Assembly (NCBI GenBank): GCA_016177005.1
Contig: JACOWC010000053.1
Location: 1-61,371, forward strand
DNA from: Methylocystis sp.
GTDB taxonomy: Bacteria > Pseudomonadota > Alphaproteobacteria > Rhizobiales > Beijerinckiaceae
Direction of reading: 5' to 3'
DNA length: 61,371 nucleotides
The stretch's first letter is position 1; each line of letters begins with the position of its first letter. Positions 38,680-57,079 of the stretch are shown piece by piece. A model generated the notes under the pieces. That model was not told the origin of the DNA, made no database searches, and saw only the letters and a program-made list of their open reading frames with translations. Position numbers and translations under genes: made by a program.

Positions 38680-38926
38680 CGGCGATCCCCGTTTGTCGCC
38701 TCCCACGCCGAATGAGTACAACAACTGTCGAACGGCGGGCAACCACGCGCGCGCTTCGCGCCAGATTAGATTTTGCCCTGGCGCCTTACCTTGCAGTCGG
38801 CGTGAAGACGAGACTATGTTGCCGACGACGCGCTTGGTTTTCCGTCAAGATATGGACGCTCCGCCTTAAGAACTACCGACGTGGGCGCCTCAAAATTCGA
38901 GGCCGAGAGTTTAAGGAGAGAATTCC

Positions 38927-39955
38927 GTGAGGGAAGCGAATGACGAGCTTCGTCTCAATTTTGCGCATTCGATTGAGGATGAAGTTATTTCCAGAAGGAA
39001 TCAACGTTCGACAAAACATGCGAACCATCATCGGATATTTGATGTTTTTGACGCATACGACGGACGCATGGAACGAGGTTATGCGTATGATTTTATCGGG
39101 TCGATGACGAATTTAAGCTTAGTCTATGGCTTGAAAGATACAATTTTCCCAGAAAGCGATTCGCATCGGAAGGCGTGCTTGCCTGCTTTCGATGAAGAAT
39201 ATTTCGAATGGATCGACTTGCTTGAGTCGGTCCATGACGCTGGCGACGCCTTCGTGATCGCCGAGGTGGGGGCGGGCTATGGTCGATGGGCGGCGCGAGG
39301 CGTGTGCGCCGCGCGCCAAAAAGGCGTTCCTCGCACAAAGGCGATTTTGGTCGAGGCCGACCCGCTGCACGCGCGCTTCGCCCGAGAACACATGAGTCTC
39401 AACGGTCTTTGTCCCGGTGATTTGTATCTTCATGAGTCCGCCGCGGCGGCGCGCAATGAGACGACCCTTTTCGCCGTGGAGGCCCCGAAAGGCTTTCTGC
39501 CGGAAGGGGCGGCGTGGTACGGACAAGCCATTTTCGGCCCTGCAGGCGAGGACCAGCTGCAATCAACGGGCGTTTCCCACTTCGGCAAGCCGCTTTTGCG
39601 ACGCAGCGACGGCTGGGGCGTGATCGAGGTCGGCTCCATGACTCTCGCCGAAGCGCTCGCAAGCCACGAGTTGATTGATTTGGTCGATATGGATATCCAA
39701 GGCGCCGAGGCTGAGGTAATTGAAACCAGCGCCGACTGTCTAAATTCGAAAGTCAAACGCCTGCACATCGGCACGCATGGATCCTCGATCGAGGATCGAT
39801 TGCGCCGCGCTTTGACCGCCCAAGGCTGGACTTGCCTGTGGGACTATCCGTGCCAAGCCGAGACCGAGACGAGCTATGGGAGAGTGCGCTTCAACGACGG
39901 CGTGCAAAGCTGGATCAACCCGCGACTGCATGCGTCTTCTCTCAGGGCTGCCTGA
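38927..39955 (+). CDS. FkbM-family methyltransferase
   Basis: EVGAGYGRW, VDMDIQGAE, LHIGTH, DGVQSW.NP. Confidence 0.8.
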   Translation: MREANDELRLNFAHSIEDEVISRRNQRSTKHANHHRIFDVFDAYDGRMERGYAYDFIGSMTNLSLVYGLKDTIFPESDSHRKACLPAFDEEYFEWIDLLESVHDAGDAFVIAEVGAGYGRWAARGVCAARQKGVPRTKAILVEADPLHARFAREHMSLNGLCPGDLYLHESAAAARNETTLFAVEAPKGFLPEGAAWYGQAIFGPAGEDQLQSTGVSHFGKPLLRRSDGWGVIEVGSMTLAEALASHELIDLVDMDIQGAEAEVIETSADCLNSKVKRLHIGTHGSSIEDRLRRALTAQGWTCLWDYPCQAETETSYGRVRFNDGVQSWINPRLHASSLRAA

Positions 39956-39984
39956 GGCGTTGCCGCGGACTTTTGGAGGAGACC

Positions 39985-40782
39985 ATGCCGAGCGTCCATG
40001 ACGGCCCGTCGCCCAGCCTCGAGGCGGTGGCCGCCTATTGGAATCGACGCCCCTGCAATGTCCGTCACTCGACAAGCAATCTCGGAACGCGAGAATATTT
40101 CGACGAGGTCGAGGCGCGAAAATATTTCGTCGAGCCGCACATCCCGGGCTTCGCCGATTTTGCCCGTTGGCGCGGCAAGCGCGTGCTCGAGATCGGATGC
40201 GGCATCGGAACCGACGCCGTAAATTTCGCGCGACAGGGGGCGGACTACTCGGCGATCGAACTCTCGCAGGCCAGTCTGGACTTGGCGATGAAACGCTTCG
40301 ACGTCTATGGCCTGACGGGTTCATTCCATCTTGGAAACGCGGAGGAGGCGGATCGGCTGCTTGCTCCCTCGACCTTCGATTTGATCTATTCGTTCGGCGT
40401 TATTCATCACACGCCAAATCCGCGCGCGGCGATCGAGGCCGCGCGGCGCCTGATCGCGCCGGACGGCGAGTTGAGAATCATGCTCTACGCGGCGAATTCG
40501 TGGAAAGCGATCATGATCGACGCCGGGTTCGATCAGCCCGAAGCGCAATCGGGTTGCCCGATCGCTTTCACCTACACGCGCGATCAAGCGCATGGCTTGC
40601 TGGACGGTTTGTTCGACATCACGCAGATGCGTCAGGACCACATATTTCCCTATATCGTGGAGAAATACATCCGCTACGAATACGAACCGACGCCGTGGTT
40701 CAAGGCTATGCCGGCGGAAATGTTCAGGGCCCTCGAAGAGAGGCTCGGCTGGCATTTGCTGATCTTAGCGAAGCCGTGTTGA
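39985..40782 (+). CDS. Class I SAM-dependent methyltransferase
   Basis: VLEIGCGIGTD, FDLIYSFGVIHHTP; GGAGG RBS before ATG 39985. Confidence 0.88.
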   Translation: MPSVHDGPSPSLEAVAAYWNRRPCNVRHSTSNLGTREYFDEVEARKYFVEPHIPGFADFARWRGKRVLEIGCGIGTDAVNFARQGADYSAIELSQASLDLAMKRFDVYGLTGSFHLGNAEEADRLLAPSTFDLIYSFGVIHHTPNPRAAIEAARRLIAPDGELRIMLYAANSWKAIMIDAGFDQPEAQSGCPIAFTYTRDQAHGLLDGLFDITQMRQDHIFPYIVEKYIRYEYEPTPWFKAMPAEMFRALEERLGWHLLILAKPC

Positions 40783-40841
40783 TGGGAATCATGCCGTTCG
40801 TCGGCGACGCGCGAGCGACGCGCGTCTGAGCCTGCGCTCAA

Positions 40842-41846
40842 TCAATCGCGGCCCGCGTTCGCGCTCGACGAGGCGAGCTGGGCTTCGATCCAAGCGTAAG
40901 TTTTCTCGAGGCCTTCCCGCAGCGGCCGCTCCGGCGCCCAGCCGAGCCGGCTTCTGACCAAGCGGTTGTCGGAGTTTCGCCCCCTTACGCCGAGCGGTCC
41001 CTTGATATGACGGATCGAGATCCTTTTGCCGGCGATGTTGGCGACAAGCGCGGCGAGCTGATTGATCGAGACCATTTCCTGTGAGCCGATGTTCACCGGT
41101 CCCGCAAAATCGGATCTCATCAAGCGCGTTACGCCTTCGAGGCATTCGTCGACGTAAAGAAATGAGCGGGTTTGAGCGCCGTCGCCCCAGATCTCAATCT
41201 CGCCGCCGTCCGGCGCCTCGGCGACCTTGCGACAGACAGCCGCCGGCGCCTTCTCCCGGCCGCCTCGCCAGGCGCCCTCTGGGCCAAAGACGTTGTGAAA
41301 CCTCGCGATGCGCGCTTCAATCGCGAAATTGCGGGCGTAAGCGAGATAGAGCCTCTCGCTGAAGAGCTTTTCCCACCCGTATTCGCTGTCCGGGGCGGCG
41401 GGATAGGCGCTTTCCTCAGCGCAATTCGGATTGTCCGGGTCGAGCTGGTTGCGCTCAGGGTAGATGCAGGCGGACGACGAGTAAAAGATGCGCTTGACGT
41501 TTCGCTTGTGGCAAACGTCGAGCACATTGAGATTGATGGTCGCCGAGTTGTGCAACACCTCGGCGTCATGCTCGCCCGTAAAAAGGTATCCCGCTCCGCC
41601 CATGTCGGCGGCGAGCTGATAGACCTCGTCGAATCTCCGGTCGACGCAATGGCGGCACATATAGGGGTCGCGCAGGTCGCCGATCAGGAAATCGTCCGCC
41701 GGCGTTTCGGCGAAGGGATTGAATTTGAGATCGACGGCGCGGACCCAAAATCCTTCCCGCTTGAGCCGCTTCGTCAAATGGCCGCCGATGAAGCCTCCCC
41801 CTCCGAGCACCAGCGCAGTTCTACCGATCATTCCTGCACTCTCCAT
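40842..41846 (-). CDS. NAD-dependent nucleotide-sugar epimerase (GDP-mannose 3',5'-epimerase-like)
   Basis: GGGGFIG, LAADMGG, SSACIYP, YGWEK, REKAPAA, GVRGRNSDN. Confidence 0.9.
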   Translation of the reverse strand: MESAGMIGRTALVLGGGGFIGGHLTKRLKREGFWVRAVDLKFNPFAETPADDFLIGDLRDPYMCRHCVDRRFDEVYQLAADMGGAGYLFTGEHDAEVLHNSATINLNVLDVCHKRNVKRIFYSSSACIYPERNQLDPDNPNCAEESAYPAAPDSEYGWEKLFSERLYLAYARNFAIEARIARFHNVFGPEGAWRGGREKAPAAVCRKVAEAPDGGEIEIWGDGAQTRSFLYVDECLEGVTRLMRSDFAGPVNIGSQEMVSINQLAALVANIAGKRISIRHIKGPLGVRGRNSDNRLVRSRLGWAPERPLREGLEKTYAWIEAQLASSSANAGRD

Positions 41847-41929
41847 GCTCCATCAGCATTGGGGCGATCTCGTAACGCAAGCGGCCCGCGTGTGCGACTT
41901 GGCGCGTGGAGCCGCTTCCGAGCCGGCGA

Positions 41930-43348
41930 TCAAGCCGCTCCTTTTCTCAAGTGCGGCGCCGCGCCGGCCCCAGGTTGCATCAAATGGAACGGAAAGCCCG
42001 CGGCCGCCGGTCGTTCGACGATTCCCCAGGGGTCGATCACGGTCAGCCGCTTTGCCGCTCGCGAGGGGCCCGGCGCGAACAGCTTCGCGAATTGCGGCCA
42101 GGGCGTCGTGACGACGACGACGTCGGCCTCAGCCACCGCGGCCGCGGGATCGTCGAAAAGTCGCGCGTGCGACTGGAGCATGGACTGAGCGGCGGGCAGA
42201 GCCAGCGGATCGCTGGCGACGACGTCGTAGCCTGACGAAAGAAGACGCGCCGCCAGCGCGAGGCCCTGGCTCTCCTCGATCACGCCGGTGTCGGGTTTAT
42301 ACGACAATCCCAGAATGGCGATGACATCGCCCGGCGCCGCGCAGCTTTCAATCGCCGCCATCAGCCGGTCGAGCTGGTGGTCGTTGATCTCGTCCGTCGC
42401 CCGAGCGATCGCGCAATTCACCCCGAGCTTGCCGCCGAGCGCCGCAAGGGCCTTGTTGTCGCGGGGAAAGCATGGACCCCCGTAGCCGATTGCGGGGCGC
42501 AGATATTTGCGGCCGATGCGGCTGTCGGCGCCGATGGCGTTCGTGACCACGAGCGCGTCCGCGCCGGGCAGGCGATCGCACATTTCGCCGATCATGTTGG
42601 CGTAAGAAATCTTCGTGGTGACGAAGGTGTTGATCGCGATCTTAGCCAGTTCTGCGTTGACGAGGCTCATCCGGTGGAATTCCGGTTCGCCCTCGACGCA
42701 GGCGCGTTGAATCGTTTCGACGACGCTCCCCGCCCTGTCGTCCGACTGTCCGATCAGGATCAGATCGGGATGGAGCATGTCGCGCACCACGGAGCCGAGC
42801 GCGATGAATTCGGGATTGTAGCAAAGGCCAAGATCTACGCCGACCTTTCGCCCGGAAGAACGCTCCAGCGCCAGTCTGATCTCGCCGTCCATCGAGCCGG
42901 GGATCAGCGTGCTGGTCACCGCCACCACATGGTAGGAGTCCTTCTTGCGCAGGGCGCCGCCGACGCTCGTTAGCGCGTCGACGACATAGGCGTTAGAAAA
43001 GAGACGGCTGGCGTCCGAAGGGGTCGGCACGATGATGAAGGTGACGTCGGAATCGGCGACCGCTTCGTCGAAGGACGTCGTGGCTCTCAGGCGCTCCCGT
43101 CCCCGGTCGATCATCGCCTGGAGCAGCGGCTCGGCGACGGGCGCGCGCCCCGCGTTGACGGCCTCGACCGCCTCGGCGTTCAAATCGAGTCCAATGACGG
43201 AAAAACCCTTCGCGGCGAAGACCGCAGCCAATGGCGCGCCCAACTTGCCGAGCCCGATCACGGACAATCTGGGGCGTCCCAATTCGTCAAAGGAGTGCGT
43301 CACCGCGTGTTTCCCATTTGACTTGCGGCGCAAGGACCCAACCATCAA
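41930..43348 (-). CDS. UDP-glucose/GDP-mannose dehydrogenase family
   Basis: IGLGKLG, IVPTP, YNPEF, YGGPCFPRD, GLSYKPDT. Confidence 0.92.
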   Translation of the reverse strand: MMVGSLRRKSNGKHAVTHSFDELGRPRLSVIGLGKLGAPLAAVFAAKGFSVIGLDLNAEAVEAVNAGRAPVAEPLLQAMIDRGRERLRATTSFDEAVADSDVTFIIVPTPSDASRLFSNAYVVDALTSVGGALRKKDSYHVVAVTSTLIPGSMDGEIRLALERSSGRKVGVDLGLCYNPEFIALGSVVRDMLHPDLILIGQSDDRAGSVVETIQRACVEGEPEFHRMSLVNAELAKIAINTFVTTKISYANMIGEMCDRLPGADALVVTNAIGADSRIGRKYLRPAIGYGGPCFPRDNKALAALGGKLGVNCAIARATDEINDHQLDRLMAAIESCAAPGDVIAILGLSYKPDTGVIEESQGLALAARLLSSGYDVVASDPLALPAAQSMLQSHARLFDDPAAAVAEADVVVVTTPWPQFAKLFAPGPSRAAKRLTVIDPWGIVERPAAAGFPFHLMQPGAGAAPHLRKGAA

Positions 43349-43436: not shown

Positions 43437-44519
43437 TCACCGCGGTTCCGCGGCGGCCTTCTCGGACGCGGCCAAGAGTTCCGCCTCCGCGAGATAAGCC
43501 GCCGCCTCTCGCCGTTTTCCGGCCTCGAGACAGGCCTGCGCGGCCAGTTCACACGCCTTCTCACGGAATATGCCGCGGTCGAAGGCGAGCAAACCTTCGT
43601 GGAGCTCGTCGGGGTCTATGCGCCGCAGCGCCATCGCTGCCTGGAGCGCTTCCAGGGGACGGCCGGCGTTCAGTAGCGCGTGGCCGCGCAGAAACGCCAG
43701 ACCGTAATCCAGCGCAAGATGATGCGCGTTCTCTTCGATGAGCGGCAGAGGATCGTCGCCCCTTTCGAGACTGAGGCGGGCGATAGCCTGCAGGATCAGG
43801 CTGGCGTTGGCCTCAGCCTTCTCGGAGACATCGAATTCGGCTCTGGCGAAACCTTCATTCGCCGCCGCGAGCGCTTCATCCGTCCTTCCGAGAGCGGCGA
43901 GCGTTTCCGCCAAATGATGCCAGTAGTACAACCGATTCGGTTCGGATCGAACGCAATCTTCGAGCAAGGGCAGATTGCGGGCGTGCTTTTCAGATTGGTC
44001 GCCGTCGTAGCCCAAGTGGTCCAACTCGATGCTGGTCCGGGCGATCGGAAGATTCTCGCGCGCCGAGATCTCCTGCAGAACCGGCATGAACGTCTCGTGG
44101 AGCCTTCCTCGAAACCTTAGACGCGGATCGTTGCGGAAAAGCCGCGGTTCTCTGTAGCGCGTATAGCCTTTCTTCGGCTGGAAGCGGACAGAGGCGGCGA
44201 TTGCGGAAGAATCAAGATAGTCGGAAACTCTCCCGCCTTCTGGCAGACGGAGGCGTTCGTCGGCGTCGATATAGAGAAACCATTCGCTGCCGACCGCGTC
44301 GAGTCCGACGTTTCTCGCGGCCGCGAAGTCCCCGGTCCATTGGTGATGAATGACCTTTGCGCCCGCGCCCGTGGCGATATTGACGGTGGCGTCCGACGAA
44401 CCCGTATCGACGATGATGATGTCATCGACACGCCCCGACAGGCTGTCGAGGCAACCGGGCAGGAAACGCTCCTCGTTCTTGACGATGAGAGCGGCGGCGA
44501 CGGAACTTACGCCTTTCAT
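43437..44519 (-). CDS. GT2 glycosyltransferase with TPR-like C-terminus
   Basis: IVKNEE..L..CL.S, VDTGSSD.T, WTGDFAAARN, IDADE, GRLHE, HLGY. Confidence 0.9.
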   Translation of the reverse strand: MKGVSSVAAALIVKNEERFLPGCLDSLSGRVDDIIIVDTGSSDATVNIATGAGAKVIHHQWTGDFAAARNVGLDAVGSEWFLYIDADERLRLPEGGRVSDYLDSSAIAASVRFQPKKGYTRYREPRLFRNDPRLRFRGRLHETFMPVLQEISARENLPIARTSIELDHLGYDGDQSEKHARNLPLLEDCVRSEPNRLYYWHHLAETLAALGRTDEALAAANEGFARAEFDVSEKAEANASLILQAIARLSLERGDDPLPLIEENAHHLALDYGLAFLRGHALLNAGRPLEALQAAMALRRIDPDELHEGLLAFDRGIFREKACELAAQACLEAGKRREAAAYLAEAELLAASEKAAAEPR

Positions 44520-44591
44520 GACGAGACTGCGCCGGAACTCACACGCATGAATTATGAACGAGTAATCGCCCCACCCTTTGTCGCTTGTCGC

Positions 44592-44798
44592 TCAGAAATT
44601 ACCCATCATGGTGACGGGGGGGACCTTCGTCACGCCCTTGGGGTCAGATCGACGCAGGCGCTCCGTGTCCAACGGGATCACTCGCGGCGCCTCGTACGTG
44701 GCCTTGCCGAAAACCTTCGCAACAATACTCGGAACAGACCGACCCTGCATTCCCGAAAGCGGTTCTCGGGAAGCAGTTTGCTTCAGGGCGGTCTTCAT
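44592..44798 (-). CDS. Putative RiPP precursor peptide (68 aa) with YxxPxV leader motif
   Basis: GGAGG RBS before ATG 44798; MKTALKQ...KATYEAPRVIPLDTERLRRSDPKGVTKVPPVTMMGNF; fills the intergenic gap in a same-strand run containing a PqqD/RRE. Confidence 0.6.
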   Translation of the reverse strand: MKTALKQTASREPLSGMQGRSVPSIVAKVFGKATYEAPRVIPLDTERLRRSDPKGVTKVPPVTMMGNF

Positions 44799-44975
44799 CC
44801 AAGCCTCCATGCATGCGCCACTGTTTACTTTTTCTAACGAAAGAAACCAAAGCGGTCAAGGTCAGGCAAACCTCAAGAAGGCCTCGAACAGCCCGTATTT
44901 AAAGGAAGAGCAAGGAGGCTGATCCGACCCGCGCGCTCCTCGTCCGATGGCCCCTGCGGGAGCGGCCCCTCACGT

Positions 44976-46349
44976 TCACAATATGTCGCAGCGGTAGCCC
45001 AGCCGTTTGCGATCGCTCCCCCAGTCGATTTCCTTGACCACTTGGACTTCAACGTCAAAAGAATCCGTGCAGTGCCTCTTGAGCAATTCTATAAGCCGGG
45101 AGCGCTGACACTGAGTCACATCGTCCTGCGCGCACAGCTCGATTTTAATCGTTCTGTAGCCTGTTTGCCTGATCCGGTATTCTCGCAGATTCACGATTTC
45201 GAGCAATTCGCTATTCCTGACATAGAACGGCGTTATCGACTGATCCGCGTGCTTTAGCAGGCTCTTTGTTCTGCCGCATATGTTGGAAAGCGTCGGTCCA
45301 TCATGTCCGCACGGGCAAACGGCGGCAAGCGAAGCGAAATCGCCGATGTCGTAACGAATCATCGGCGTGGCGTAGGAATGTAAATGAGTCACGAGAACGC
45401 GGCCAAGCTCGACGCCGTTCATGTCGATCTTTTCGCCGCGATCGATTTCCACGACAACGTTGCTCGTCGCAACATGAAACTTGCCTGGCGTGAACTCGCA
45501 CTCCGATGCGATGAGTCCGACCTCTTCCGCCGAATAGCTCGATCGCACCGGGACCCCTCTTTGCGCGAATTTTTCGCGCAACGAATCGTCCACGCCTTCG
45601 CCGATTGGCATCCACATGGACAAGCCGGAATTGGAAAGCAGTTCCTCTTCGGCTTCTCGCAACAACGGTTCGATAATGCGCGGAGATGCGATCAAATAAC
45701 CGATCTCGTCTCTCGCAAGTTCCGTCGCCAGTTTCCTGATGGCAGGGTGAAAGTATTTTATGTGCTTAGTGCCGCCTGACGCAAAGAATGAGTCAAGGTG
45801 ATATAACCACGATCCCTTGCGCTCCACATTGAATCCGTCCGCAAAATGCTCTGGACTGTGTTGCAGGAGAGTCTTGGGTTTCGTAAGTTCTCTGCCTTCA
45901 ATGAAGTATTGAGCCATGCCTCTTATATTATTATACTCCATATTCATTGCGCTAACATAGAATTTCGTCGGCATGCCTGAAGAGCCGGATGTCGAATGCA
46001 GCGCTACCCCTATTCTGTCGGGGGCCCTGAGCAGGCTTTGTTCGCTTGCCACTTGGGCGATGAGATCGCGGCGCCTCAATATCGGCAGCAAATGGAGATC
46101 GAGGCTCTTGACGTTGCGCGACCCGATCCGTCGTCGCCAGAAGGACGACCGGCTCGCGCAGTGCGCGAGAAGATTGTTGATTTGTGCGCGCTGCCACTCT
46201 TCCCGCGCGGCGCGGGTTCCCGTTTCGATCGCGAGCAGATCGATGACGGCGACAAGCGCGTTCTTCACCGCTGGCTCGCAAAACGTCATCGCTTGCGCGC
46301 TGAAGGCCGACTTCAGCACCTCCGCTTTTGAAAAGTCTATGCGCAGCAT
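44976..46349 (-). CDS. PaaK/CapK-like adenylate-forming ligase
   Basis: STSGSSGMP, YSAEEVG.IA.EC, PMIRYDIGD, GRT. Confidence 0.85.
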   Translation of the reverse strand: MLRIDFSKAEVLKSAFSAQAMTFCEPAVKNALVAVIDLLAIETGTRAAREEWQRAQINNLLAHCASRSSFWRRRIGSRNVKSLDLHLLPILRRRDLIAQVASEQSLLRAPDRIGVALHSTSGSSGMPTKFYVSAMNMEYNNIRGMAQYFIEGRELTKPKTLLQHSPEHFADGFNVERKGSWLYHLDSFFASGGTKHIKYFHPAIRKLATELARDEIGYLIASPRIIEPLLREAEEELLSNSGLSMWMPIGEGVDDSLREKFAQRGVPVRSSYSAEEVGLIASECEFTPGKFHVATSNVVVEIDRGEKIDMNGVELGRVLVTHLHSYATPMIRYDIGDFASLAAVCPCGHDGPTLSNICGRTKSLLKHADQSITPFYVRNSELLEIVNLREYRIRQTGYRTIKIELCAQDDVTQCQRSRLIELLKRHCTDSFDVEVQVVKEIDWGSDRKRLGYRCDIL

Positions 46350-46454
46350 AGCTCGGCCTGGCCCTTCTCAGCATCATTCCCGAAAAGTTAAGAACCGATT
46401 TTCAGACAAAATGATGCGAAACGCCTCTCCGGCCGCGGCTGCGCGCGTTGGCTT

Positions 46455-46802
46455 TCAGGAAAGCCCATCGTTCCGCCGTTTCAGGATCTTCGTTAGAAAG
46501 CGGCGCACAGCCGCTCCTGGCGCCGGGCTCTCGGCTTCCACTAAGCCCTCGGCCAGAAGCATTCTAAGGCAAATCTCGACATCGGTCAGCGGATCCGCGG
46601 TGAGCGCGAACGCTTGCCGCATCAACGCCGCAATAGCGGCCGCGTCGGCTCCGTCCTCGCATAATTCGAGCACGGCGACGGCCGTGGGATTGAGGAGAAT
46701 CGCGCGTTCGGCGCTTTCGTCGTAAATGACGTATCCGTCCAAGACCTCCAAATAGTCGGGGTTCTTGATCTTCCTATATACTTGCCCTGGCTCCTCACGC
46801 AT
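46455..46802 (-). CDS. Stand-alone PqqD-family protein (RiPP recognition element)
   Basis: DGYVIYD...LLNPTA..VLELC..G...IAA.M..AF...DV..CL..L..EGLV. Confidence 0.85.
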   Translation of the reverse strand: MREEPGQVYRKIKNPDYLEVLDGYVIYDESAERAILLNPTAVAVLELCEDGADAAAIAALMRQAFALTADPLTDVEICLRMLLAEGLVEAESPAPGAAVRRFLTKILKRRNDGLS

Positions 46803-46874
46803 CGCGCTCTTCTCGATCTGCTGACTTTATCCCAGAACGCTTTTGTCGGACCTGGTGGCGCAGGCCCGACGGCC

Positions 46875-47915
46875 TCAGGCGACCTCTGCGACGGCGTCGA
46901 TGACCTCGTCAACGCCGATTGTCGCCCCGATCGACGACTCGACGAAATCGACCATGACCTTATGCGCCCAGAAGCCGCTTGCGGTTTCTGGGCTTTCGAG
47001 CGCGATCGTCGCGTCGCGCACCATGATGATGTTGAATCTTTCCCGCCACATGTTGATGACGCCGATCGGGCGCGTCATCAAGCAATAATTTGTCGAATAC
47101 CCCATATATACGAGCCTATCCGCGCCAAGCGCGCGCAAGTCCTCGGCGATATAGTTGGCGTGCAGGCTGCCCTCGATCAGGACTTCATTCGGCCGGGGCG
47201 CGATTGCGGGATGTGGCGCGCGGTCGTGCGGGGCGTGAAAAATCCTGAAGCCCGCACGGCGAAAGGCGGATAAGGCCGGGACCAGGCGATCAACGATGTT
47301 TTCGTGCGCGCGCTGCGCCCAGCCCGGACATTCGTGGTCCGACCAGGCGTCGATGACGATCACCGCGGACCTCCGCGCCTCGAGAATTTCCGACGTGACC
47401 ACGGGCGCGCCGCCTCGTTCAGGATGAGCCTCTGTCCCGCCGAAGGGCGTTTGCGATCGACGTCGCATCGGCAGACGCAGGCGCGCGTCGGAAGTCGGCC
47501 AATTCCGGAGCAGTCCCTCGCCGAAGGGCCTCTCTCTTATGCTCAGCAGAGCGCCCGAGGACGGGTCGCCCGCAGCGGATGCGTTGCGGATCAGCAAGCC
47601 GGCCATTGCGCGGCCTTCCGGAACGAGAAGGGAGCCTGCATGTTTGCCGCTCGCCCAGACCCGCTCCGAAAGTAGCTTCAGATCGGCGCTTACCGCAGCC
47701 AAGCCGATCGCGCCATGCTCGACCTCGAGACTCACGTCGAAGGCGAGGGGGCCTTCCGCCTCCAAATCCGTCGAGACGGGAATGAGAGCCGAGTAGCCGC
47801 CGCAATCCGGATGCGTGCGCACGCGGATTTCGTCTTCGTCGACGCTCAGATGCGCCCCGTTCAGCTGCATCGCCTTCTCTACGCGAACGCACGCCGCGAA
47901 TCTCAAGGGTTCCAT
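46875..47915 (-). CDS. Isochorismatase-like cysteine hydrolase with N-terminal accessory module
   Basis: AVIVIDAW..H.C, LVYMGYSTNYC, VRDAT; GGGAG RBS before ATG 47915. Confidence 0.7.
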   Translation of the reverse strand: MEPLRFAACVRVEKAMQLNGAHLSVDEDEIRVRTHPDCGGYSALIPVSTDLEAEGPLAFDVSLEVEHGAIGLAAVSADLKLLSERVWASGKHAGSLLVPEGRAMAGLLIRNASAAGDPSSGALLSIRERPFGEGLLRNWPTSDARLRLPMRRRSQTPFGGTEAHPERGGAPVVTSEILEARRSAVIVIDAWSDHECPGWAQRAHENIVDRLVPALSAFRRAGFRIFHAPHDRAPHPAIAPRPNEVLIEGSLHANYIAEDLRALGADRLVYMGYSTNYCLMTRPIGVINMWRERFNIIMVRDATIALESPETASGFWAHKVMVDFVESSIGATIGVDEVIDAVAEVA

Positions 47916-48252: not shown

Positions 48253-49110
48253 ATGAAAAATCATCTACCGTCTATCTCGGTTCTGGCGCTGCTCATGGCG
48301 TCAGGTTCTGCATTTGCAGCCGACCTTCCTTCGCACAAGGCGCCGCCGCCTCCGCCACCTCCGCCGCCTGCGCCGGCGTTGTGGACGGGCTGCTACGTCG
48401 GTCTCAACGCCGGCTGGACATGGGGCGATCACAATCAGATATCCAACCAGTCCATCGACAGCGAAGGGGCCACTGGGCTAACGACCACATACGCGGCCTC
48501 CCACGCGCCGCTGGACGGATTCATCGGCGGCGGCCAGGCGGGCTGCAATTATCAGTTCCCGGGCAGCAGTTTCGTTCTCGGCCTCGAAACGGACATCCAG
48601 GGCACGACAGCCTCGGGACACGGCGCCGCCGCAGGGTTGGGCGCCGTAGGCCCGAACGCCTTGCTCACGGTGTTCGATAACCACAGAACGCTCGACTATC
48701 TCGGAACCGTGCGCGGTCGGGTCGGCTTCCTCATTACGCCGACGCTGGAGGTCTACGGAACCGGGGGCCTCGCCTATGGCGGAGTCACGGCGAACACCAG
48801 CGCGTTCAGCTTCTGGTCGCCCTTCGGCCAGTTCGGAGGCGGCGCGGGGAACTTCTCCGGCACGCTGGCTGGCTGGACGGCTGGCGCGGGCGTCGAGTGG
48901 ATGTTCATGCCGAACTGGAGCGCGAAGGCCGAGTATCTGCATTACGACCTCGGCCATGCGAATTGGACGACGAGCTGGCTCGTCCCCGGCAACTTCGGCG
49001 GCGTAGGCGCGAATTTCGCGGTCTCTCGTACGACCTTCGACGGCAACATCGTCCGGCTTGGCGTGAACTATCACTTCAACGTGGCTCCGCCGCCCATGAT
49101 CCAATACTGA
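48253..49110 (+). CDS. Outer-membrane beta-barrel protein (Omp25/RopB family)
   Basis: Signal + ADLPSHKAPPPP, WTGCYVGLNAG, GWTAGAGVEW, GVNYHF. Confidence 0.9.
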   Translation: MKNHLPSISVLALLMASGSAFAADLPSHKAPPPPPPPPPAPALWTGCYVGLNAGWTWGDHNQISNQSIDSEGATGLTTTYAASHAPLDGFIGGGQAGCNYQFPGSSFVLGLETDIQGTTASGHGAAAGLGAVGPNALLTVFDNHRTLDYLGTVRGRVGFLITPTLEVYGTGGLAYGGVTANTSAFSFWSPFGQFGGGAGNFSGTLAGWTAGAGVEWMFMPNWSAKAEYLHYDLGHANWTTSWLVPGNFGGVGANFAVSRTTFDGNIVRLGVNYHFNVAPPPMIQY

Positions 49111-49295: not shown

Positions 49296-49514
49296 ATGTC
49301 GGCCATGTCTCATGAAGTCGATCGCGCAAATCCGGTGAAATCAGCCGTCTTCGCGCCAGCAATCGCGTCCGAGGGCGCTGGGGCAAATCGCGAGCTCAAT
49401 CCAATCATGACGCGCGTTCTCGCCAAGGCTCGTTCGGCGAGGCCCGCTTCCGCCCAAGATGGCGATGCGAGAAAGTCCGAATTTCTCTCGGCGTTTTACA
49501 AATCCGCTGAATAA
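49296..49514 (+). CDS. Putative cyclophane (triceptide) RiPP precursor, 72 aa
   Basis: AGGAG RBS before ATG 49296; helical LNPIMTRVLAKAR leader; C-terminal SEFLSAFYKSAE; stop 15 nt before the rSAM gene. Confidence 0.75.
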   Translation: MSAMSHEVDRANPVKSAVFAPAIASEGAGANRELNPIMTRVLAKARSARPASAQDGDARKSEFLSAFYKSAE

Positions 49515-49529: not shown

Positions 49530-50663
49530 ATGCGGAGCGGTCGCAAGACGGTTCTGGATACGATCATCCTCAAGTTCGCTTCGCGCTGCAATTTGGCGTG
49601 CGATTATTGTTATGAATACGCCGCGGGAGACGCAAGTTGGCGGGCGAAGCCGAAGTTGGCTTCGCCCGACGTGTTTCGGCGTCTCGGGACACGCATAAGC
49701 GAGTTCGGCGAGGAAACGGGCTCGCGACAAATTAATGTGGTCATGCACGGGGGCGAGCCGCTCCTCGTCGGAGTCAAGCGACTCGATCGATTGTTGTCTT
49801 GCCTGCGGGAGGCGGCGCGGCCCGTTGAGATAAAGTATAGTTTGCAGACCAACGGAACGCTTTTGAGCCCCGCAATATGCGACATTCTCGAAGCTCACGA
49901 CGTCTGTGTCGGCGTGAGCCTCGACGGCGGGCCCGAGCACAATGTTTTCCGCAAGGATCTCAAGGGGCGCGAGACATGGGAGCGCGTCAGCCGAGCCATC
50001 CATCGCTTGAAGGCGCGCGCCACAAATCTATTCGGCGGTCTGCTGTGCGTCGTCGATTTCGACACCGATCCCGAGGCCGTCATTACCGCGCTTTGCGACT
50101 TCGATCCGCCGGCGCTCGATCTGCTTCATCCATTCATCACTCATGATATGGCGGGCGCGCGTCGCAAGGAACTCGCCCTTCGGTACGGGCGATGGATGAA
50201 CGAAGCGATGAGGTTCTGGCTCTCCCGCCCGGATTTCGCCCACATCTCCATCCGCGTGTTCGAAGACGCTCTGCAAGCCGCGGTTTCCGCATATCCGCGG
50301 ACGGACTGGTTCGGACGAAGGAGCGTGAGCCTGCTGATCGTCGAGACCGACGGATCTTACGATCTGCTGGATCAGCTCAAAGTGATCGGTCAATCGAGCG
50401 CTGGCGTGCGAAATCTCAAGAAAACCGTCTTCGATTGCTCCCTCCTCGAAGCCGAGCGGATCGCCTGGGGACTGCTTCGCGACGCCAAGGGCGATGTGCT
50501 TCCGTCGGATTGCGCAGACTGCAGATGGCGCGAGATTTGCGCCGGGGGCCACCTTCCGGCGCGCTATTCGCTGGCGCGCGGTTTCGACAATAAATCCGTC
50601 TATTGCGAGGGCATCGGCGCTCTCCTGGACCTTGCTCAGGAAGTGATGCGTGCGCCGCAATGA
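49530..50663 (+). CDS. Radical SAM/SPASM peptide maturase, FxsB/YhhB-like
   Basis: ILKFASRCNLACDYCY, HGGEPLL, QTNG, VETDGSY..LD.LK, CADC...CAGG...RY...GFDNKSVYC. Confidence 0.88.
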   Translation: MRSGRKTVLDTIILKFASRCNLACDYCYEYAAGDASWRAKPKLASPDVFRRLGTRISEFGEETGSRQINVVMHGGEPLLVGVKRLDRLLSCLREAARPVEIKYSLQTNGTLLSPAICDILEAHDVCVGVSLDGGPEHNVFRKDLKGRETWERVSRAIHRLKARATNLFGGLLCVVDFDTDPEAVITALCDFDPPALDLLHPFITHDMAGARRKELALRYGRWMNEAMRFWLSRPDFAHISIRVFEDALQAAVSAYPRTDWFGRRSVSLLIVETDGSYDLLDQLKVIGQSSAGVRNLKKTVFDCSLLEAERIAWGLLRDAKGDVLPSDCADCRWREICAGGHLPARYSLARGFDNKSVYCEGIGALLDLAQEVMRAPQ

Positions 50664-50722: not shown

Positions 50723-51823
50723 TTACGGGTTCGATATCCGTGGGGCGACAGCCGGCGCGTTGCGCAGTGCGGGTTCGAGCGTTTTGAAGACGAAGTTGGC
50801 GACGACCCTATCGCCTTTCTCCGTCAAATGAATGCCGTCCTGCGAATAAACTCCGTCATCCTTCTCCAAGCTGCCCGTCGCGTCCACGATGAATTTGTGG
50901 GTTGAAGGGAGATCTATTATTTCCTGATAGAGAGACGACAGGCTGTCTACATATTCCCTGCCGTTGGTTTCAATCGAGGCCTGCGCCGCATGCCTGCTCC
51001 GGAAAAAAGCATGGGGTTGGATGAAGGCGTAAAATCTTGCCCCTTGCGATACGCTTATCGCATTCATCAGCTCGATGTTTTTTGAATATTGCTGTCCGAC
51101 GCTGCGGCGACTCGCGACGCCCAAATTCACCGATACGCGGCGTTTAAATAATGCTGGCGTCAGCTGCGAAATAACAGAATAGGTGTTAGAAAAAATACAG
51201 ACGAAGGCGTTAGGCTCGGGATTCGAGAATTGATCGAAAACATATTTTTGATAGGAATGCACCATCGGATGCGAGGGCTCGCCGTAAAAACCCCTGTCGT
51301 TGACCCCGCTATAGGAAATAACGAAGTCAGGATTATACTCCAGCCCATCCCTGACAAGCTTGAGCAGTTCCTGGTTTGTCGAAAACCCGCCAACGCTTCC
51401 ATTAATAATGGTGCCCTTCATATTATTGACGATGAGCAGCTTTGCTAATTCCTCAGGCCAGCTGTGCCCGTACAGAACTCCATCTGCCGTTGACCCGCCA
51501 AGAACAAGTATGATGGGCCTGTCCCACCTTTGATTTTTTGATTTATATATAACATTGCCGTTATCCCACGAATACGACTGTTCAACGCGCTTGAGCTTCG
51601 GCTCGCCGCCGCCGTATCCATAGCCGATGTGGGGATCTAGCGCGGTGAACTCGGCTCCGAGCCGGTCAAGCCGCTCCCGCTTTTGGCTGATTTCGGCGGT
51701 CTTGCGATGGCAGTCGATGTTCGGTTTCCTGTTGGTCGCCTGTAGGAACAAAAATGCGCCGAGCTCCGTGCAACCTAAAGTGACCAATATTGCAAGAATG
51801 ACAGGAAGATGTTTGAGCCTCAT
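50723..51823 (-). CDS. Membrane-anchored SGNH/GDSL hydrolase-like protein
   Basis: N-terminal TM, LGGSTA, YSGVND, DGIH; visibly AT-richer than flanks. Confidence 0.75.
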   Translation of the reverse strand: MRLKHLPVILAILVTLGCTELGAFLFLQATNRKPNIDCHRKTAEISQKRERLDRLGAEFTALDPHIGYGYGGGEPKLKRVEQSYSWDNGNVIYKSKNQRWDRPIILVLGGSTADGVLYGHSWPEELAKLLIVNNMKGTIINGSVGGFSTNQELLKLVRDGLEYNPDFVISYSGVNDRGFYGEPSHPMVHSYQKYVFDQFSNPEPNAFVCIFSNTYSVISQLTPALFKRRVSVNLGVASRRSVGQQYSKNIELMNAISVSQGARFYAFIQPHAFFRSRHAAQASIETNGREYVDSLSSLYQEIIDLPSTHKFIVDATGSLEKDDGVYSQDGIHLTEKGDRVVANFVFKTLEPALRNAPAVAPRISNP

Positions 51824-52029: not shown

Positions 52030-53682
52030 TCAAAAATCCTCCGCCTTCAGCAGACTCCATTTCTTCTGGCCCCAGGCCCCGCTGCGCAGGGCGAGCAAGC
52101 GCGGTTCGAGGCGAATGCGAAAACAAATGTCGCCGGCGCAAGCTTCCCTTAGCGCGCGCAGCAGCGCTTCCTCGTCAATGGGAAGGCCGTCGCTGCTCAC
52201 ATAGCGGAATGTGACTTCGCCTGGTTGGCGCTGCACGCAATCGAACAAGCGCACGTTCCGGAGTTTTTCGACCACTGGCTTCGCGCCCATGATCAGACCC
52301 AGCAGATAGGGGTTTCCGCGACGATCCAGCAGGACGTCCTTGCTGCGTCCTTCCACGGCGCCGAATCGCAACGGGGCCGGGGGACACGCGCCGCAAGCTT
52401 CGGCGCGTCCGCTCGCGATGTCGCCGGTGGCGTAGGCGATGAACAAAGTGTCGAGCGCCCAGAACGCGGCGCCGATGATGTCGCAGAGGCCATCCGGCCT
52501 CGGCCGCAAGGAGATCAGGCCGAGATTGCCCAGTTCCGAATAGGCGCCGCAATGGGGACACCGCAAAGCGAAGCCCGCGCCTTCCGACAGGCCGTAAGTC
52601 CCCACAATCTTGTCGGCGATCGTCCCGATCGCCGAGATTTGTCCCGCCGCAATGTTTTCGGAGCCGATCACCGCAAGGCGGAAGCGGTAGCGCCCCTCAA
52701 GCGTCGCGGCCAGATCGGCCGCCAAGGTCGGCCAGCCGAAGAGCGTGGTGGGTCGATAGATATCGAGCAGGCGAAGCAGCAGGTCGCGTTCGCGAAGCGT
52801 CGCGAGGCCGATCAGAAGGCTTCCGCCCGAACCCGTCACGCTGAGGCCCGGCACAGACCGGCAAAGGTTCAGGAATTTGTGACGCGGCGGGGCAAGCCCT
52901 GGAAGGCCGTAGCTGCAGGCGGCCCCGATGAGGCTCGTATGCGCCGAATGCAGAGTCGAAGTGAAGCGGAAGGGCAGCGGCTCTCCGGTCGAGCCGGCGG
53001 TCGTGAATTCCTGGCTTCTTCGGCGGTTGAGCGAAAATGCGCCTGTGTCCGCGCGAATCTGCTGCTTGGTGACGACCGGAATCTCATTGGCGTCCTCGAG
53101 GCGGCGCAACTCCGAAGGTCGCCAGCCGTTCTGCGTCCACCAATCCCGATAGCCGGGGCAATGACGCCATGCGAGATCGACGAGACGACGCAGTCGACGA
53201 AACCTCCAGTTGGAGGCGACCTCCGCCCGCTCGCCAACTCGCCAGAGCGTTTGGGCGAAAGCGTTCTCGAAGGGTTGATCGCAAAAGGCGCCGCTATACG
53301 GCTGCTCGAGCCAGGAACGCCATGCAGCGTCCCCGCTGGCGTCGTCGAGGTCGCTCCATCTGAGCGCATGCAGAACGACCCGCAGCGGCGAGCGAGCGCT
53401 GTTGCGGACGAATATGGCTTCGCATTCGTTCGGCTCCCAAAGCGTCAGCCGGATGCGGCGCGGATGCGGCGCCGCGTCGACGAAGATCTCTTCGGCGATC
53501 GATTTTGAGGTCCGCCAGCCGACTCCCGCCTGGCCCTCGGCGACGGTGATCGTCACCGTCACAAGGCTGGAGTTCGCTCTGGGCGGCGCGGGCGCGGCGA
53601 TGAGTTCGATCGCCGTGGACCATTGCAGCGGCGCTTCCAGCGAAATTGGGAAAACCGCGTCCGATTCTCGCAGCGCGTTCAA
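52030..53682 (-). CDS. Second PaaK/CapK-like ligase with N-terminal accessory module
   Basis: TTAGSTGEP, YGLSE, FIAYATGD, VEGR. Confidence 0.75.
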   Translation of the reverse strand: MNALRESDAVFPISLEAPLQWSTAIELIAAPAPPRANSSLVTVTITVAEGQAGVGWRTSKSIAEEIFVDAAPHPRRIRLTLWEPNECEAIFVRNSARSPLRVVLHALRWSDLDDASGDAAWRSWLEQPYSGAFCDQPFENAFAQTLWRVGERAEVASNWRFRRLRRLVDLAWRHCPGYRDWWTQNGWRPSELRRLEDANEIPVVTKQQIRADTGAFSLNRRRSQEFTTAGSTGEPLPFRFTSTLHSAHTSLIGAACSYGLPGLAPPRHKFLNLCRSVPGLSVTGSGGSLLIGLATLRERDLLLRLLDIYRPTTLFGWPTLAADLAATLEGRYRFRLAVIGSENIAAGQISAIGTIADKIVGTYGLSEGAGFALRCPHCGAYSELGNLGLISLRPRPDGLCDIIGAAFWALDTLFIAYATGDIASGRAEACGACPPAPLRFGAVEGRSKDVLLDRRGNPYLLGLIMGAKPVVEKLRNVRLFDCVQRQPGEVTFRYVSSDGLPIDEEALLRALREACAGDICFRIRLEPRLLALRSGAWGQKKWSLLKAEDF

Positions 53683-53956: not shown

Positions 53957-54308
53957 TCTCGGGGCTTTGGCGATCAGCCTGCGACGTGATTGGCGTTGAT
54001 TCGCCCAAAATCGAATATCAGCTCCGCGCGGCTCGGTCGTGCAATCGGCGGGTTTATTGTGTCACGCCGCTGCGAGGCGGTCGTGAAACTTGCTGCCGGT
54101 CGCCTCGGCGAAGCGCAGGAGCGTTTTTGCGCTCGGCAACGTTTGCCCGCTCTCCAGCCGAGCGATGGCGGACTGGCTGAAACCGCGCCTGTGGGAAATT
54201 CCGTCCTTATGGAGACGGCCTTATCGGTCTCAGGGCTTTTGTGGGACGGCGCCTTCAATTCCGTGATAGGCGGAAACCGTCCGCCTCTTGAGAAACTCGT
54301 TCCAGCTT

Positions 54309-57062: not shown

Positions 57063-57079
57063 CGCCAAGGACCTACGCC

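What the first reader, a model, noticed from the sequence alone, without database searches (positions are those of the whole stretch)
43437..47915. Candidate new RiPP class: RRE + PaaK-like ligase + YxxP precursor + SunS-type glycosyltransferase
Seen: a same-strand run of cysteine hydrolase, stand-alone PqqD, PaaK-like ligase, a 68-aa ORF with GGAGG RBS (44592-44798) and GT2-TPR. The peptide contains TYEAPRVIPLD followed by RRSDPKGVTKVPPVTMMGNF. Established: YxxPxL-type motifs are bound by PqqD-fold RREs (lasso and related leaders), and this GT2 motif set (NEE..CL.S, W..DF..ARN, DADE) is shared with the glycocin transferase SunS as well as many non-RiPP GTs. No pqq genes, lasso cyclase or lasso peptidase are in the window. 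Inference: an RRE-guided pathway that acylates or ligates (Lys, termini) and glycosylates (Ser/Thr) this peptide, a combination I do not recognise as a described class.
Basis: partly seen in the sequence, partly recalled or inferred. Interest (0 to 1): 0.88.

Follow-up and report, generated by a model that had tools for sequence, protein, structure and literature searches.

The report
Chaperone-guided peptide glycosylation at fixed asparagine
A 68-residue peptide gene, a peptide-gripping chaperone gene and a sugar-transferase gene recur together in dozens of unrelated bacteria, and the transferase likely attaches a sugar at an asparagine that almost all these peptides keep at a fixed position, which would be an undescribed class of bacterial glycopeptides; the neighbouring ligase is only an occasional companion.

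Summary
The genes are real, and the small ORF is conserved. One clade of GT2-TPR glycosyltransferases (55 loci, support 1.0) holds all 47 loci that carry this precursor and/or this RRE subfamily; none of 111 outside loci does. The precursor family (650 clusters at 50% identity, no Pfam/NCBIfam model) has a conserved leader, RR/KR...[FY]xxPxVxSF...AxA, then a variable core with Asn 22-28 residues from the aromatic anchor (29 of 31 loci found with a leader-only profile). Most leaders look like Tat signals, and some precursors end in PEP-CTERM/IPTL anchors. The window peptide belongs to a subclade that lost both the arginine pair and the hydrophobic stretch and ends G-N-x(1-4). The PaaK-like ligase occurs in only 2 of 62 loci and elsewhere sits beside porin genes, so it does not define the class. 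However, all 7 signal-less loci that keep the GT have some ATP-dependent ligase next to it. Best reading: RRE-guided glycosylation by the GT, likely on Asn (about 0.5; Ser/Thr next). It is not a lasso, glycocin, PQQ or LPP cluster; LPP is the closest analogue. Binding, expression and chemistry are untested.

The parts
43437..44519 (-). GT2-TPR glycosyltransferase (360 aa), GmaR/SunS-like fold; likely class-defining enzyme; clade-specific residues P115, T120, Y122, E124
   Evidence: pLDDT 91.4; SunS/ThuS TM 0.63-0.66
44592..44798 (-). 68-aa precursor peptide; signal-less member of a 650-cluster family
44804..44808 (-). GGAGG ribosome-binding site, 5 nt before the precursor ATG
   Evidence: sequence
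44679..44696 (-). YEAPRV (Y35-V40), predicted RRE recognition motif; P38 invariant in 48 aligned precursors
   Evidence: binding inferred from lasso/LPP RRE structures
44598..44600 (-). Asn67, the family's conserved core Asn and predicted sugar acceptor (+33 from Y35 here; +24/+25 typical)
46455..46802 (-). Stand-alone RRE (PqqD fold) of a subfamily that co-occurs with the GT clade and precursor
   Evidence: (TfuB1, LppB top hits)
44976..46349 (-). PaaK-like ANL ligase (457 aa); accessory, not core; sister to the ligase beside the same cassette in L007
46875..47915 (-). Isochorismatase-domain protein; same strand but not conserved with the cassette (probably not part)
48253..49110 (+). Omp25/RopB-like outer-membrane beta-barrel; usual neighbour of this ligase family and seen near 5 signal-less precursor loci including the window (context)
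40842..43348 (-). UDP-glucose dehydrogenase and NAD-dependent epimerase directly downstream; possible sugar-donor supply (context, inferred)

Best explanation
The peptide, RRE and GT2-TPR genes form a conserved three-part cassette in which the RRE likely grips the YEAPRV motif and the glycosyltransferase likely transfers a first sugar from a nucleotide-sugar onto the conserved asparagine (Asn67) in the cytoplasm, with the PaaK-like ligase likely an accessory tailoring enzyme in this lineage only. Shown: the co-occurrence, the conserved leader, the fixed-register Asn, intact GT catalytic motifs and the clade-specific residues of the GT. Inferred: RRE binding (from lasso and LPP structures); Asn as acceptor (from conservation); extension of the glycan by the accessory GT4, GT71, Anp1-like and GT10 enzymes found in relatives. 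In most relatives the leader is also predicted to act as a Tat signal, removed at AxA, releasing a glycopeptide or a PEP-CTERM/IPTL-anchored surface glycoprotein. In the window's subclade the signal is lost and Asn lies 1-4 residues from the C-terminus. There the adjacent ATP-dependent ligase would activate a carboxylate (the peptide C-terminus or a uronic acid of the glycan) and couple it to an amine. That last step is the weakest (about 0.35).
For: GT tree of 166 loci: one clade of 55 (FastTree support 1.0) holds all 47 loci with precursor and/or clade RRE; the 8 unmarked members lie on 1.4-9.3 kb loci. In 33 clade loci of 9 kb or more: precursor 30, RRE 28 (includes the training loci). A leader-only profile from 12 training peptides finds precursors in 31 of 80 metagenome loci and 0 of 70 distant-GT loci; 29 of those 31 have Asn at +22..+28. 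In 32 non-training loci, positions +23..+26 hold N in 27, S in 19, T in 9, C in 1. Repeat-type precursors repeat the Asn unit: GEPNQ (L150), PNQ (L126), GSNL (L012); L150's repeats and the L096 and L101 cores carry no Ser/Thr near the Asn. Reverse tests: of 9 new precursor-anchored genomes, 5 have GT+RRE, 2 RRE only, 1 neither, 1 is a false hit. The best RRE-anchored hit has the full cassette. Three of 4 genomes whose locus lacks the RRE carry it elsewhere, against 3 of 400 random class members. The RRE profile's PDB hits include TfuB1 and LppB, both solved with YxxP leaders. GT motifs DTGS, W..DF..ARN, DADE, HE, HxGY and KxxRN are intact. RR and hydrophobic stretch are lost together (max hydropathy 1.06-2.31 in 49 RR/KR leaders vs -0.15-0.69 in 6 without). 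Precedent for O- and N-transferases within one family: GT41 (PMC10466321, passages).
Against: No binding, expression or mass data. The solved relatives are O-/S-transferases (SunS/ThuS S-glycosyltransferases by PDB title; GmaR as flagellin O-GlcNAc transferase is recalled), and I found no GT2 N-transferase in print. Ser or Thr is present in 148 of 149 cores. Some precursors lack the Asn (L088, L089, L235; 18 of 149 representatives within +22..+41). The representative set was chosen with a profile that includes the Asn, so its counts are biased. N-x-S/T enrichment (78 of 128 in that set) is not significant in the unbiased loci (12 of 32 vs 8.8 expected). The window peptide has an 8-residue insertion (Asn at +33), which breaks the usual spacing. 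The LPP core also begins AQSN, and there Ser3 is the modified residue. L007 has no RRE found in its genome. The loci are related by descent, so the counts are not independent.
Confidence: 0.5

Rival explanations
1. Same RRE-guided cassette, but the GT O-glycosylates a Ser/Thr near the Asn (here Thr63), as GmaR-type enzymes do; the Asn is a recognition or turn residue.
For: Closest solved relatives are O-/S-transferases with the same catalytic motifs. Ser/Thr in 148 of 149 cores. Ser is the commonest residue before the Asn (41 of 128). Many signal-less peptides have S/T four residues before the Asn (TMMGN, SMMGN, SLAGN). Asn-less precursors (L088, L089) are rich in S/T/Y.
Against: No Ser/Thr position is conserved; at +23..+26 N is in 27 of 32, S in 19, T in 9. 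AYAGNV (L009), QGKNQIGAQ (L096), YVGNL (L101) and the GEPNQ repeats (L150) have no nearby hydroxyl although the same GT clade is present.
Confidence: 0.25
2. The window copy is a decaying or repurposed remnant inside a surface-polysaccharide island: the precursor lost its signal, the Asn is out of register, and the GT and ligase serve cell-surface glycan synthesis.
For: Neighbours are sugar-nucleotide enzymes, methyltransferases and other GTs. The GT was not found in 4 same-genus genomes. Partial relics exist in the same subgroup (L233, L234 lack the GT). 8-residue insertion in the peptide.
Against: All three window ORFs are intact with coding-type GC3 (0.70-0.72). The signal-less form is a clade (support 0.907) with invariant P and N across 15 aligned members. 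The L007 peptide shares the longer spacer and KGxTxxPxV[ST]MMGN.
Confidence: 0.1
3. An LPP-like pathway in which an HprK-like kinase and nucleotidyltransferase make the primary modification on Ser, and the GT2-TPR only decorates it.
For: HprK-like genes in 19 and NTP_transf_5 in 10 of 33 long loci. GT-kinase fusions in L106 and L115. The LPP core starts AQSN with Ser3 phosphorylated, resembling AQA-QSN cores here.
Against: The GT is in all cassette loci by selection, but 5 of 9 precursor-anchored genomes also have it; the kinase is missing from 14 of 33 long loci and from the window region. NTP_transf_5 and SipW-type peptidase were not found in the 65%-complete genome. Ser before Asn is no commoner with the kinase (6 of 18) than without (3 of 12).
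Confidence: 0.08
4. One reading: the PaaK-like ligase is the RRE-dependent, class-defining enzyme that acylates or ligates Lys or a terminus, with the GT acting on Ser/Thr.
For: In the window the RRE gene directly precedes the ligase. In L007 the ligase starts 11 bp after the GT. The two ligases are sisters (UFBoot 98), and both peptides keep a KGxT motif.
Against: Ligase in 2 of 62 loci. Its orthologues in 7 of 7 other loci read have no peptide or RRE, and 6 lie by porin arrays. Lys in the core in 1 of 32 further signal-less-type peptides.
Confidence: 0.07

Closest known systems
Linear polyphosphorylated peptides (LPP; LppA/B/K/S/D/N of Bacillota; PMC13381572, abstract, sections 6-8 and passages read)
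   Same: Discrete RRE with a YxxPxV leader motif, linear product, no cyclase, conserved leader with highly variable core, 1 to several precursors per locus, signal-peptidase-type cleavage, setting among polysaccharide genes, core starting (A)QSN; HprK-like kinase and NTP transferase in a subset of relatives. LppB is a PDB hit of the RRE profile.
   Different: The constant enzyme here is a GT2-TPR, not the kinase. No SipW-type peptidase or MsbA-like exporter was seen beside the cassette. The leader reads RR...[FY]xxPxVxSF...AxA, not YxxPxVLxHQxIxFETxxS. It is Tat-like, sometimes with PEP-CTERM/IPTL anchors. The conserved core residue is Asn. Hosts are labelled mainly Alphaproteobacteria and Acidobacteria.
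Glycocins (SunS/ThuS S-/O-glycosyltransferases; sublancin, thurandacin)
   Same: Same GT2-TPR fold (Foldseek E 1e-17, TM 0.63-0.66) acting on a small ribosomal peptide.
   Different: SunS HMM 76 bits vs cut-off 350. No Cys in the window peptide and none conserved in cores (1 of 32). Glycocins use a double-glycine leader, PCAT exporter and disulfide oxidoreductases and have no RRE (recalled); none of these was seen here.
GmaR-type flagellin glycosyltransferases (PDB 22ao)
   Same: Closest solved sequence (E 3.7e-48); shared HE, HxGY and KxxRN motifs.
   Different: These modify a large protein on Ser/Thr without an RRE (recalled). The 111 GT2-TPR loci outside the clade have no precursor and lack P115/T120/Y122/E124.
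Lasso peptide RRE/leader systems (TfuB1, TbiB1; paeninodin type)
   Same: RRE fold and YxxPx[LVI] motif.
   Different: No cyclase or B2 peptidase in the window; B2 not found in the genome; no lasso-type core.
Cytoplasmic Asn N-glycosyltransferases (HMW1C/ApNGT, GT41; PMC10466321 passages)
   Same: Predicted chemistry: direct transfer of a hexose from an NDP-sugar to Asn in the cytoplasm.
   Different: NGT is GT41, GT-B fold, and needs N-x-S/T. This enzyme is GT2, GT-A fold, and would be aimed by an RRE without a strict sequon. Its chemistry is untested.

Membership tests
LPP (Bacillota) | Discrete RRE with YxxPx[VL] leader motif | tested here: met
LPP (Bacillota) | SipW/archaeal-type signal peptidase in the cluster | tested here: not met
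   None among window genes scanned; TIGR02228 not found in the 65%-complete genome
LPP (Bacillota) | HprK-like kinase and NTP transferase as core genes | tested here: not met
   Absent from window 35001-57000; family-wide 19 and 10 of 33 long loci
LPP (Bacillota) | Leader consensus YxxPxVLxHQxIxFETxxS | tested here: not met
   Consensus here FxAPxVASFxMxxL vs paper section 6
Glycocins | SunS-family S-glycosyltransferase above the curated cut-off | tested here: not met
   76.1 bits vs 350; fold is shared
Glycocins | Cys-rich core with disulfides and glycosylated Cys/Ser (feature recalled) | tested here: not met
   No Cys in the window peptide; C at +23..+26 in 1 of 32
Lasso peptides | Macrolactam cyclase and B2 peptidase | tested here: not met
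   B2 not found in the genome; one weak Asn_synthase hit on another contig
PQQ biosynthesis | PqqD with PqqA/B/C/E | tested here: not met
   TIGR03859 22.6 bits vs 46; no pqq genes among the 17 ORFs scanned at 32.9-53.7 kb
HPr-rel-A system (TIGR04352/TIGR04353) | PqqD_rel_X and HprK_rel_A above cut-off | tested here: not met
   Window RRE 18.8 vs 35; L014 kinase 34.4 vs 200
RRE-dependent RiPP (general) | Physical RRE-leader binding and RRE-dependent modification | not testable with these tools
   The complex predictor was not available; needs experiment
Tat-exported proteins | Twin-Arg motif, hydrophobic stretch, AxA site (window peptide) | tested here: not met
   The window peptide has no [RK]R before the anchor and max hydropathy 0.37; met in most relatives ([RK]R 31 of 32, AxA 25 of 32)
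Asn N-glycosyltransferases (GT41) | GT41/GT-B fold and N-x-S/T sequon | tested here: not met
   GT2/GT-A; the window Asn has no +2 residue; sequon enrichment inconclusive

The most novel reading that the evidence does not exclude
A widespread, undescribed glycosylation pathway in which an RRE aims a GT2/GT-A enzyme at an Asn about 25 residues from the recognition motif. It would be the first GT2 protein N-glycosyltransferase and a sequon-free one. Its leader doubles as a Tat signal and is portable: it is fused to free peptides, repeat arrays and PEP-CTERM/IPTL-anchored surface proteins. In the window's lineage the signal is dropped and an ATP-dependent ligase couples the C-terminal glyco-Asn peptide to another molecule instead.
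Probability: 0.4. Interest if true: 0.9.

Novelty: new variant of a known kind. Interest (0 to 1): 0.76.

Why it matters
It defines a large, unnamed family of RRE-dependent precursors (650 clusters at 50% identity) with a short, testable prediction: three small genes should suffice to glycosylate one residue. If the acceptor is Asn, it adds a new fold to protein N-glycosylation and a leader-directed, sequon-free tool for glycopeptide engineering. A leader that is both an RRE docking site and an export signal links RiPP logic to surface-protein sorting (PEP-CTERM), and it gives a function to a class of orphan PqqD genes found among polysaccharide genes. If the acceptor is Ser/Thr, it is still an undescribed RRE-dependent glycopeptide class.

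Tried and rejected
Complex prediction of RRE plus peptide was not available, so there is no verdict on binding. No RNA holder was listed, which is no evidence on expression. The promoter/terminator scan was at chance level (2 vs 1.4 and 7 vs 6.3). A single-sequence RRE search found only itself. A plasmid search gave only distant GTs of about 30-35% identity. Pfam/NCBIfam have no model for the precursor leader; the best hit is formate_TAT at E 0.003 in 3 of 12. The Atlas lists 30 near clusters, none with a Pfam family, and 10 representatives carry no name beyond 'hypothetical protein'. N-x-S/T sequon rule: not significant in unbiased loci. Link between HprK presence and Ser before Asn: none. 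A shared N-terminal domain among four island proteins, including the isochorismatase, was suggested by eye but not supported by leave-one-out profiles (E 0.12, 1.3, none, none). The ATP-grasp identity of the A6 family is weak: Pfam ATP-grasp hits at E 6e-4 to 0.04, below cut-offs, and no PDB hit. TatC was not found in the 65%-complete genome, which is uninformative. The ligase was not found at E 1e-100 in 300 further order-level genomes. The two PaaK-like proteins of the window do not align significantly. The first tree run timed out and was redone with FastTree. Rows dropped: P0012 (1711-aa repeat protein, false hit) was left out but counted. Two outside loci (L162, L164) have a weak PqqD-like hit (23 and 34 bits) that I did not count as the clade RRE. 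The G133 ligase locus was not fetched (short contig). Of 83 candidate neighbour ORFs in RR-bearing loci I scanned 45; they gave one AMP-binding enzyme (L012) and one acyl-CoA-synthetase-type ATP-grasp (L100), so ligases are not wholly absent near RR-bearing cassettes. Literature searches showed no paper describing this set; the library lacks most subscription papers, and supplements (e.g. RRE-Finder Fig. S6/S7 and data sets) were not read and may list such loci.
Full report
Observation. The RRE passes Pfam's PqqD cut-off, and the GT has a GT2 domain followed by TPR-like helices. The ligase is PaaK-like only distantly. The 68-aa ORF has GGAGG 5 nt upstream and coding-type GC3 of 0.70. The YxxPxV motif alone proves little, since 21 of 586 comparable small ORFs in this 65%-complete genome have one.

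Conservation. I collected GT relatives from 150 family genomes (5 hits), the GTDB collection (best 80) and metagenomes (best 80). The closest relatives carry a small ORF, nearly always just upstream of the GT, that aligns with the window peptide, and most carry the same RRE subfamily. In a tree of 166 GT domains, one clade of 55 (FastTree support 1.0) contains all 47 loci with the precursor and/or this RRE. The 8 unmarked members are on 1.4-9.3 kb loci, and none of the 111 outside loci has the precursor. Two outside loci have a weak, different PqqD-like gene that I did not count. The clade has its own residues just before the conserved R126: P115, T120, Y122, E124, at 82-98% inside and 0-8% outside.

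Reverse tests. Anchored on the precursor, 9 new genomes out of 800 were hit: 5 have GT and RRE beside it, 2 the RRE only, 1 neither, and 1 is a false hit. Anchored on the RRE, 3 of 400 class genomes were hit; the strongest has the full cassette, and the two weaker ones lack the clade GT. All 10 cassette genomes searched whole carry a precursor. Three of 4 genomes whose locus lacks the RRE have it elsewhere. These genomes are kin to varying degrees, so the counts are not independent events.

The precursor family. A profile of 12 peptides finds 650 clusters at E<=0.001 among 1.84 billion representatives. No Pfam or NCBIfam model names the leader. The consensus is VD..[RK]R..L..L..G.A-[FY]xxPxVxSFxMxxL....AxA followed by a variable core. 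In 32 non-training loci, [RK]R precedes the anchor in 31, AxA follows in 25, and Asn lies at +23..+26 in 27 (Ser 19, Thr 9, Cys 1). To remove selection for Asn I used a leader-only profile: 31 of 80 metagenome loci were hit, 0 of 70 distant-GT loci, and 29 of 31 have Asn at +22..+28. Some precursors repeat the Asn unit (GEPNQ, PNQ, GSNL); some loci have 3-7 tandem copies. Others fuse the leader to PEP-CTERM, IPTL-CTERM-like, DUF11, Peptidase S74 or Hint domains. Against a strict rule: L088, L089 and L235 have no Asn, 18 of 149 representatives lack it, Ser/Thr is in 148 of 149 cores, and N-x-S/T enrichment fails in the unbiased set.

The window's subgroup. The window, L007, L009, L011, L087 and L090 form a subclade (0.907). 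Their peptides have lost both the arginine pair and the hydrophobic stretch (hydropathy -0.15 to 0.69 versus 1.06 to 2.31 in 49 others) and end G-N-x(1-4). The joint loss suggests that both features serve export in the others, and that the window peptide is not exported that way (inference). In 15 such peptides, five of them picked by eye, only Met1, Pro38 and Asn67 are invariant. In 32 further hits, many near-duplicates and selected by that profile, Asn is at +25 in 30 and Lys is in the core of 1. The window peptide has an 8-residue insertion that puts Asn at +33.

The ligase. Among 33 clade loci of 9 kb or more: precursor 30, RRE 28, GT4 21, HprK-like 19, Anp1-like 14, GT71 12, NTP_transf_5 10, GT10 6, ATP-grasp-like 4, PaaK-like 2. 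Ligase orthologues occur in 8 of 250 family genomes. The 7 loci read have no precursor, RRE or clade GT, and 6 sit beside Omp25-like porin genes. So the ligase is not class-defining. Yet all 7 GT-bearing signal-less loci have an ATP-dependent ligase beside the GT or peptide: PaaK-like (window, L007), a weakly ATP-grasp-like family (L009, L011, L090, L232) or TupA-like (L087). Among RR/KR-bearing loci only the sister L008 has the ATP-grasp-like family, and two have unrelated acyl-CoA-type enzymes nearby. The window and L007 ligases are sisters (UFBoot 98), and in L007 the ligase follows the GT by 11 bp. This may be shared descent rather than function. The isochorismatase has no counterpart in any fetched locus.

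Structure. The GT model (pLDDT 91.4) matches SunS/ThuS best by fold (TM 0.63-0.66) and GmaR best by sequence, with catalytic motifs intact. The RRE model has the three-strand, three-helix order (pLDDT 91.9). Its nearest structures are PqqD and the lasso B1 proteins (E 0.007-0.025, weak for so small a domain), and its profile hits TfuB1 and LppB. The complex predictor was not available, so binding rests on analogy with those leader complexes (PMC13381572 section 8).

Mechanism. Shown: co-inheritance, leader, register, intact enzymes. Inferred: the RRE binds YEAPRV; the GT adds the first sugar (together about 0.8); the acceptor is Asn (about 0.5 overall, Ser/Thr 0.25); accessory GTs extend it; RR-bearing forms leave by Tat and are cut at AxA; in the window's lineage a ligase activates a carboxylate of the peptide end or the glycan (about 0.35). 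GT41 holds both O- and N-transferases (PMC10466321 passages), and sequon-free Asn glucosylation by an unidentified enzyme is known in chloroviruses (PMC9614988 passages), so an acceptor switch has precedent but none in GT2 that I found.

Comparison. The closest system is LPP (PMC13381572; abstract, sections 6-8 and passages): RRE, YxxPxV leader, linear product, polysaccharide setting, and a core starting AQSN with Ser3 phosphorylated. It fails membership on peptidase, kinase, NTP transferase and leader consensus. Glycocin, lasso, PQQ and HPr-rel-A tests also fail. RRE-Finder papers mention RRE-glycosyltransferase fusions without describing this set (PMC7470986 and PMC12710340, passages only); their supplements were not read. 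Ten searches showed no description. Two earlier AI notes of this scan appear to describe the same family; they are not independent support.

Verdict. Real, conserved and apparently undescribed: an RRE + GT2-TPR + precursor glycopeptide system. I rate it a new variant of RRE-dependent linear RiPPs, with about a 0.4 chance of new chemistry. Interest 0.76.

Noticed in passing
window 49296-49514 and 49530-50663 (+): A 72-aa ORF ending EFLSAFYKSAE lies directly before a radical SAM/SPASM gene whose best models are the cyclophane-forming YhhB (303 bits, cut-off 445) and FxsB (297, cut-off 370): a probable second, triceptide-like RiPP pair with an unassigned precursor.
   Followed up: partly
L194-L198, L200; window 44976-46349 with 48253-49110: The PaaK-like ligase family (invariant P-loop and C-x-C-G motifs) sits in 1-3 copies beside arrays of up to 7 Omp25/RopB-like porin genes in 6 of 7 family loci: a separate conserved ligase-porin module of unknown role.
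   Followed up: partly
L009:8041-8985, L011:8065-9042, L090:6432-7379, L232:7097-8029, L008: An unnamed ~313-aa family (249 homologues, no precomputed Pfam match for the family; weak ATP-grasp hits) follows the GT in signal-less cassettes.
   Followed up: partly
L230:9615-11384 (G1132): Seven tandem precursors, each with AQA/AYA-Q[VA]ANGSG after the leader, in a complete genome with the full accessory set; a good experimental model.
   Followed up: partly
L117:5047-5661, L107:9-419, L094:459-1319, L236:1428-2300: The same leader is fused to Hint, Peptidase S74 (tail chaperone), DUF11 and carboxypeptidase-regulatory-like domains; 7 of 149 representatives have the S74-type SDRRLK start.
   Followed up: no
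L098:418-2343, L106:7108-9210, L115:38-2035: The clade GT is fused to an Anp1 domain (L098) or an HprK-like domain (L106, L115), tying these accessories to the pathway.
   Followed up: no
L088:7974-8171, L089:4213-4416: An Asn-less precursor subtype ending DPFFRLFS beside the same GT clade; a natural control for the acceptor question.
   Followed up: no
window 32907-43348: A glycan-synthesis island: 921-aa double GT, 581-aa protein without Pfam hit, radical SAM with TPR, FkbM and class I methyltransferases, epimerase, UDP-glucose dehydrogenase.
   Followed up: no
window 52030-53682 (-) and 50723-51823 (-): A second, unrelated PaaK-like protein with a 150-aa N-terminal extension, and a low-GC (0.51) SGNH-family protein.
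   Followed up: partly
L179:6643-7919 (G445): A weaker RRE relative with an RR...FSLPVV leader peptide and a cytidylyltransferase-like neighbour (read by eye) but no clade GT: possibly a sister system.
   Followed up: no
window 54288-58207 (+): Snf2 helicase plus a downstream 375-aa ORF with a SWIM-like Cys/His motif (motif recalled); below all NCBIfam cut-offs.
   Followed up: no
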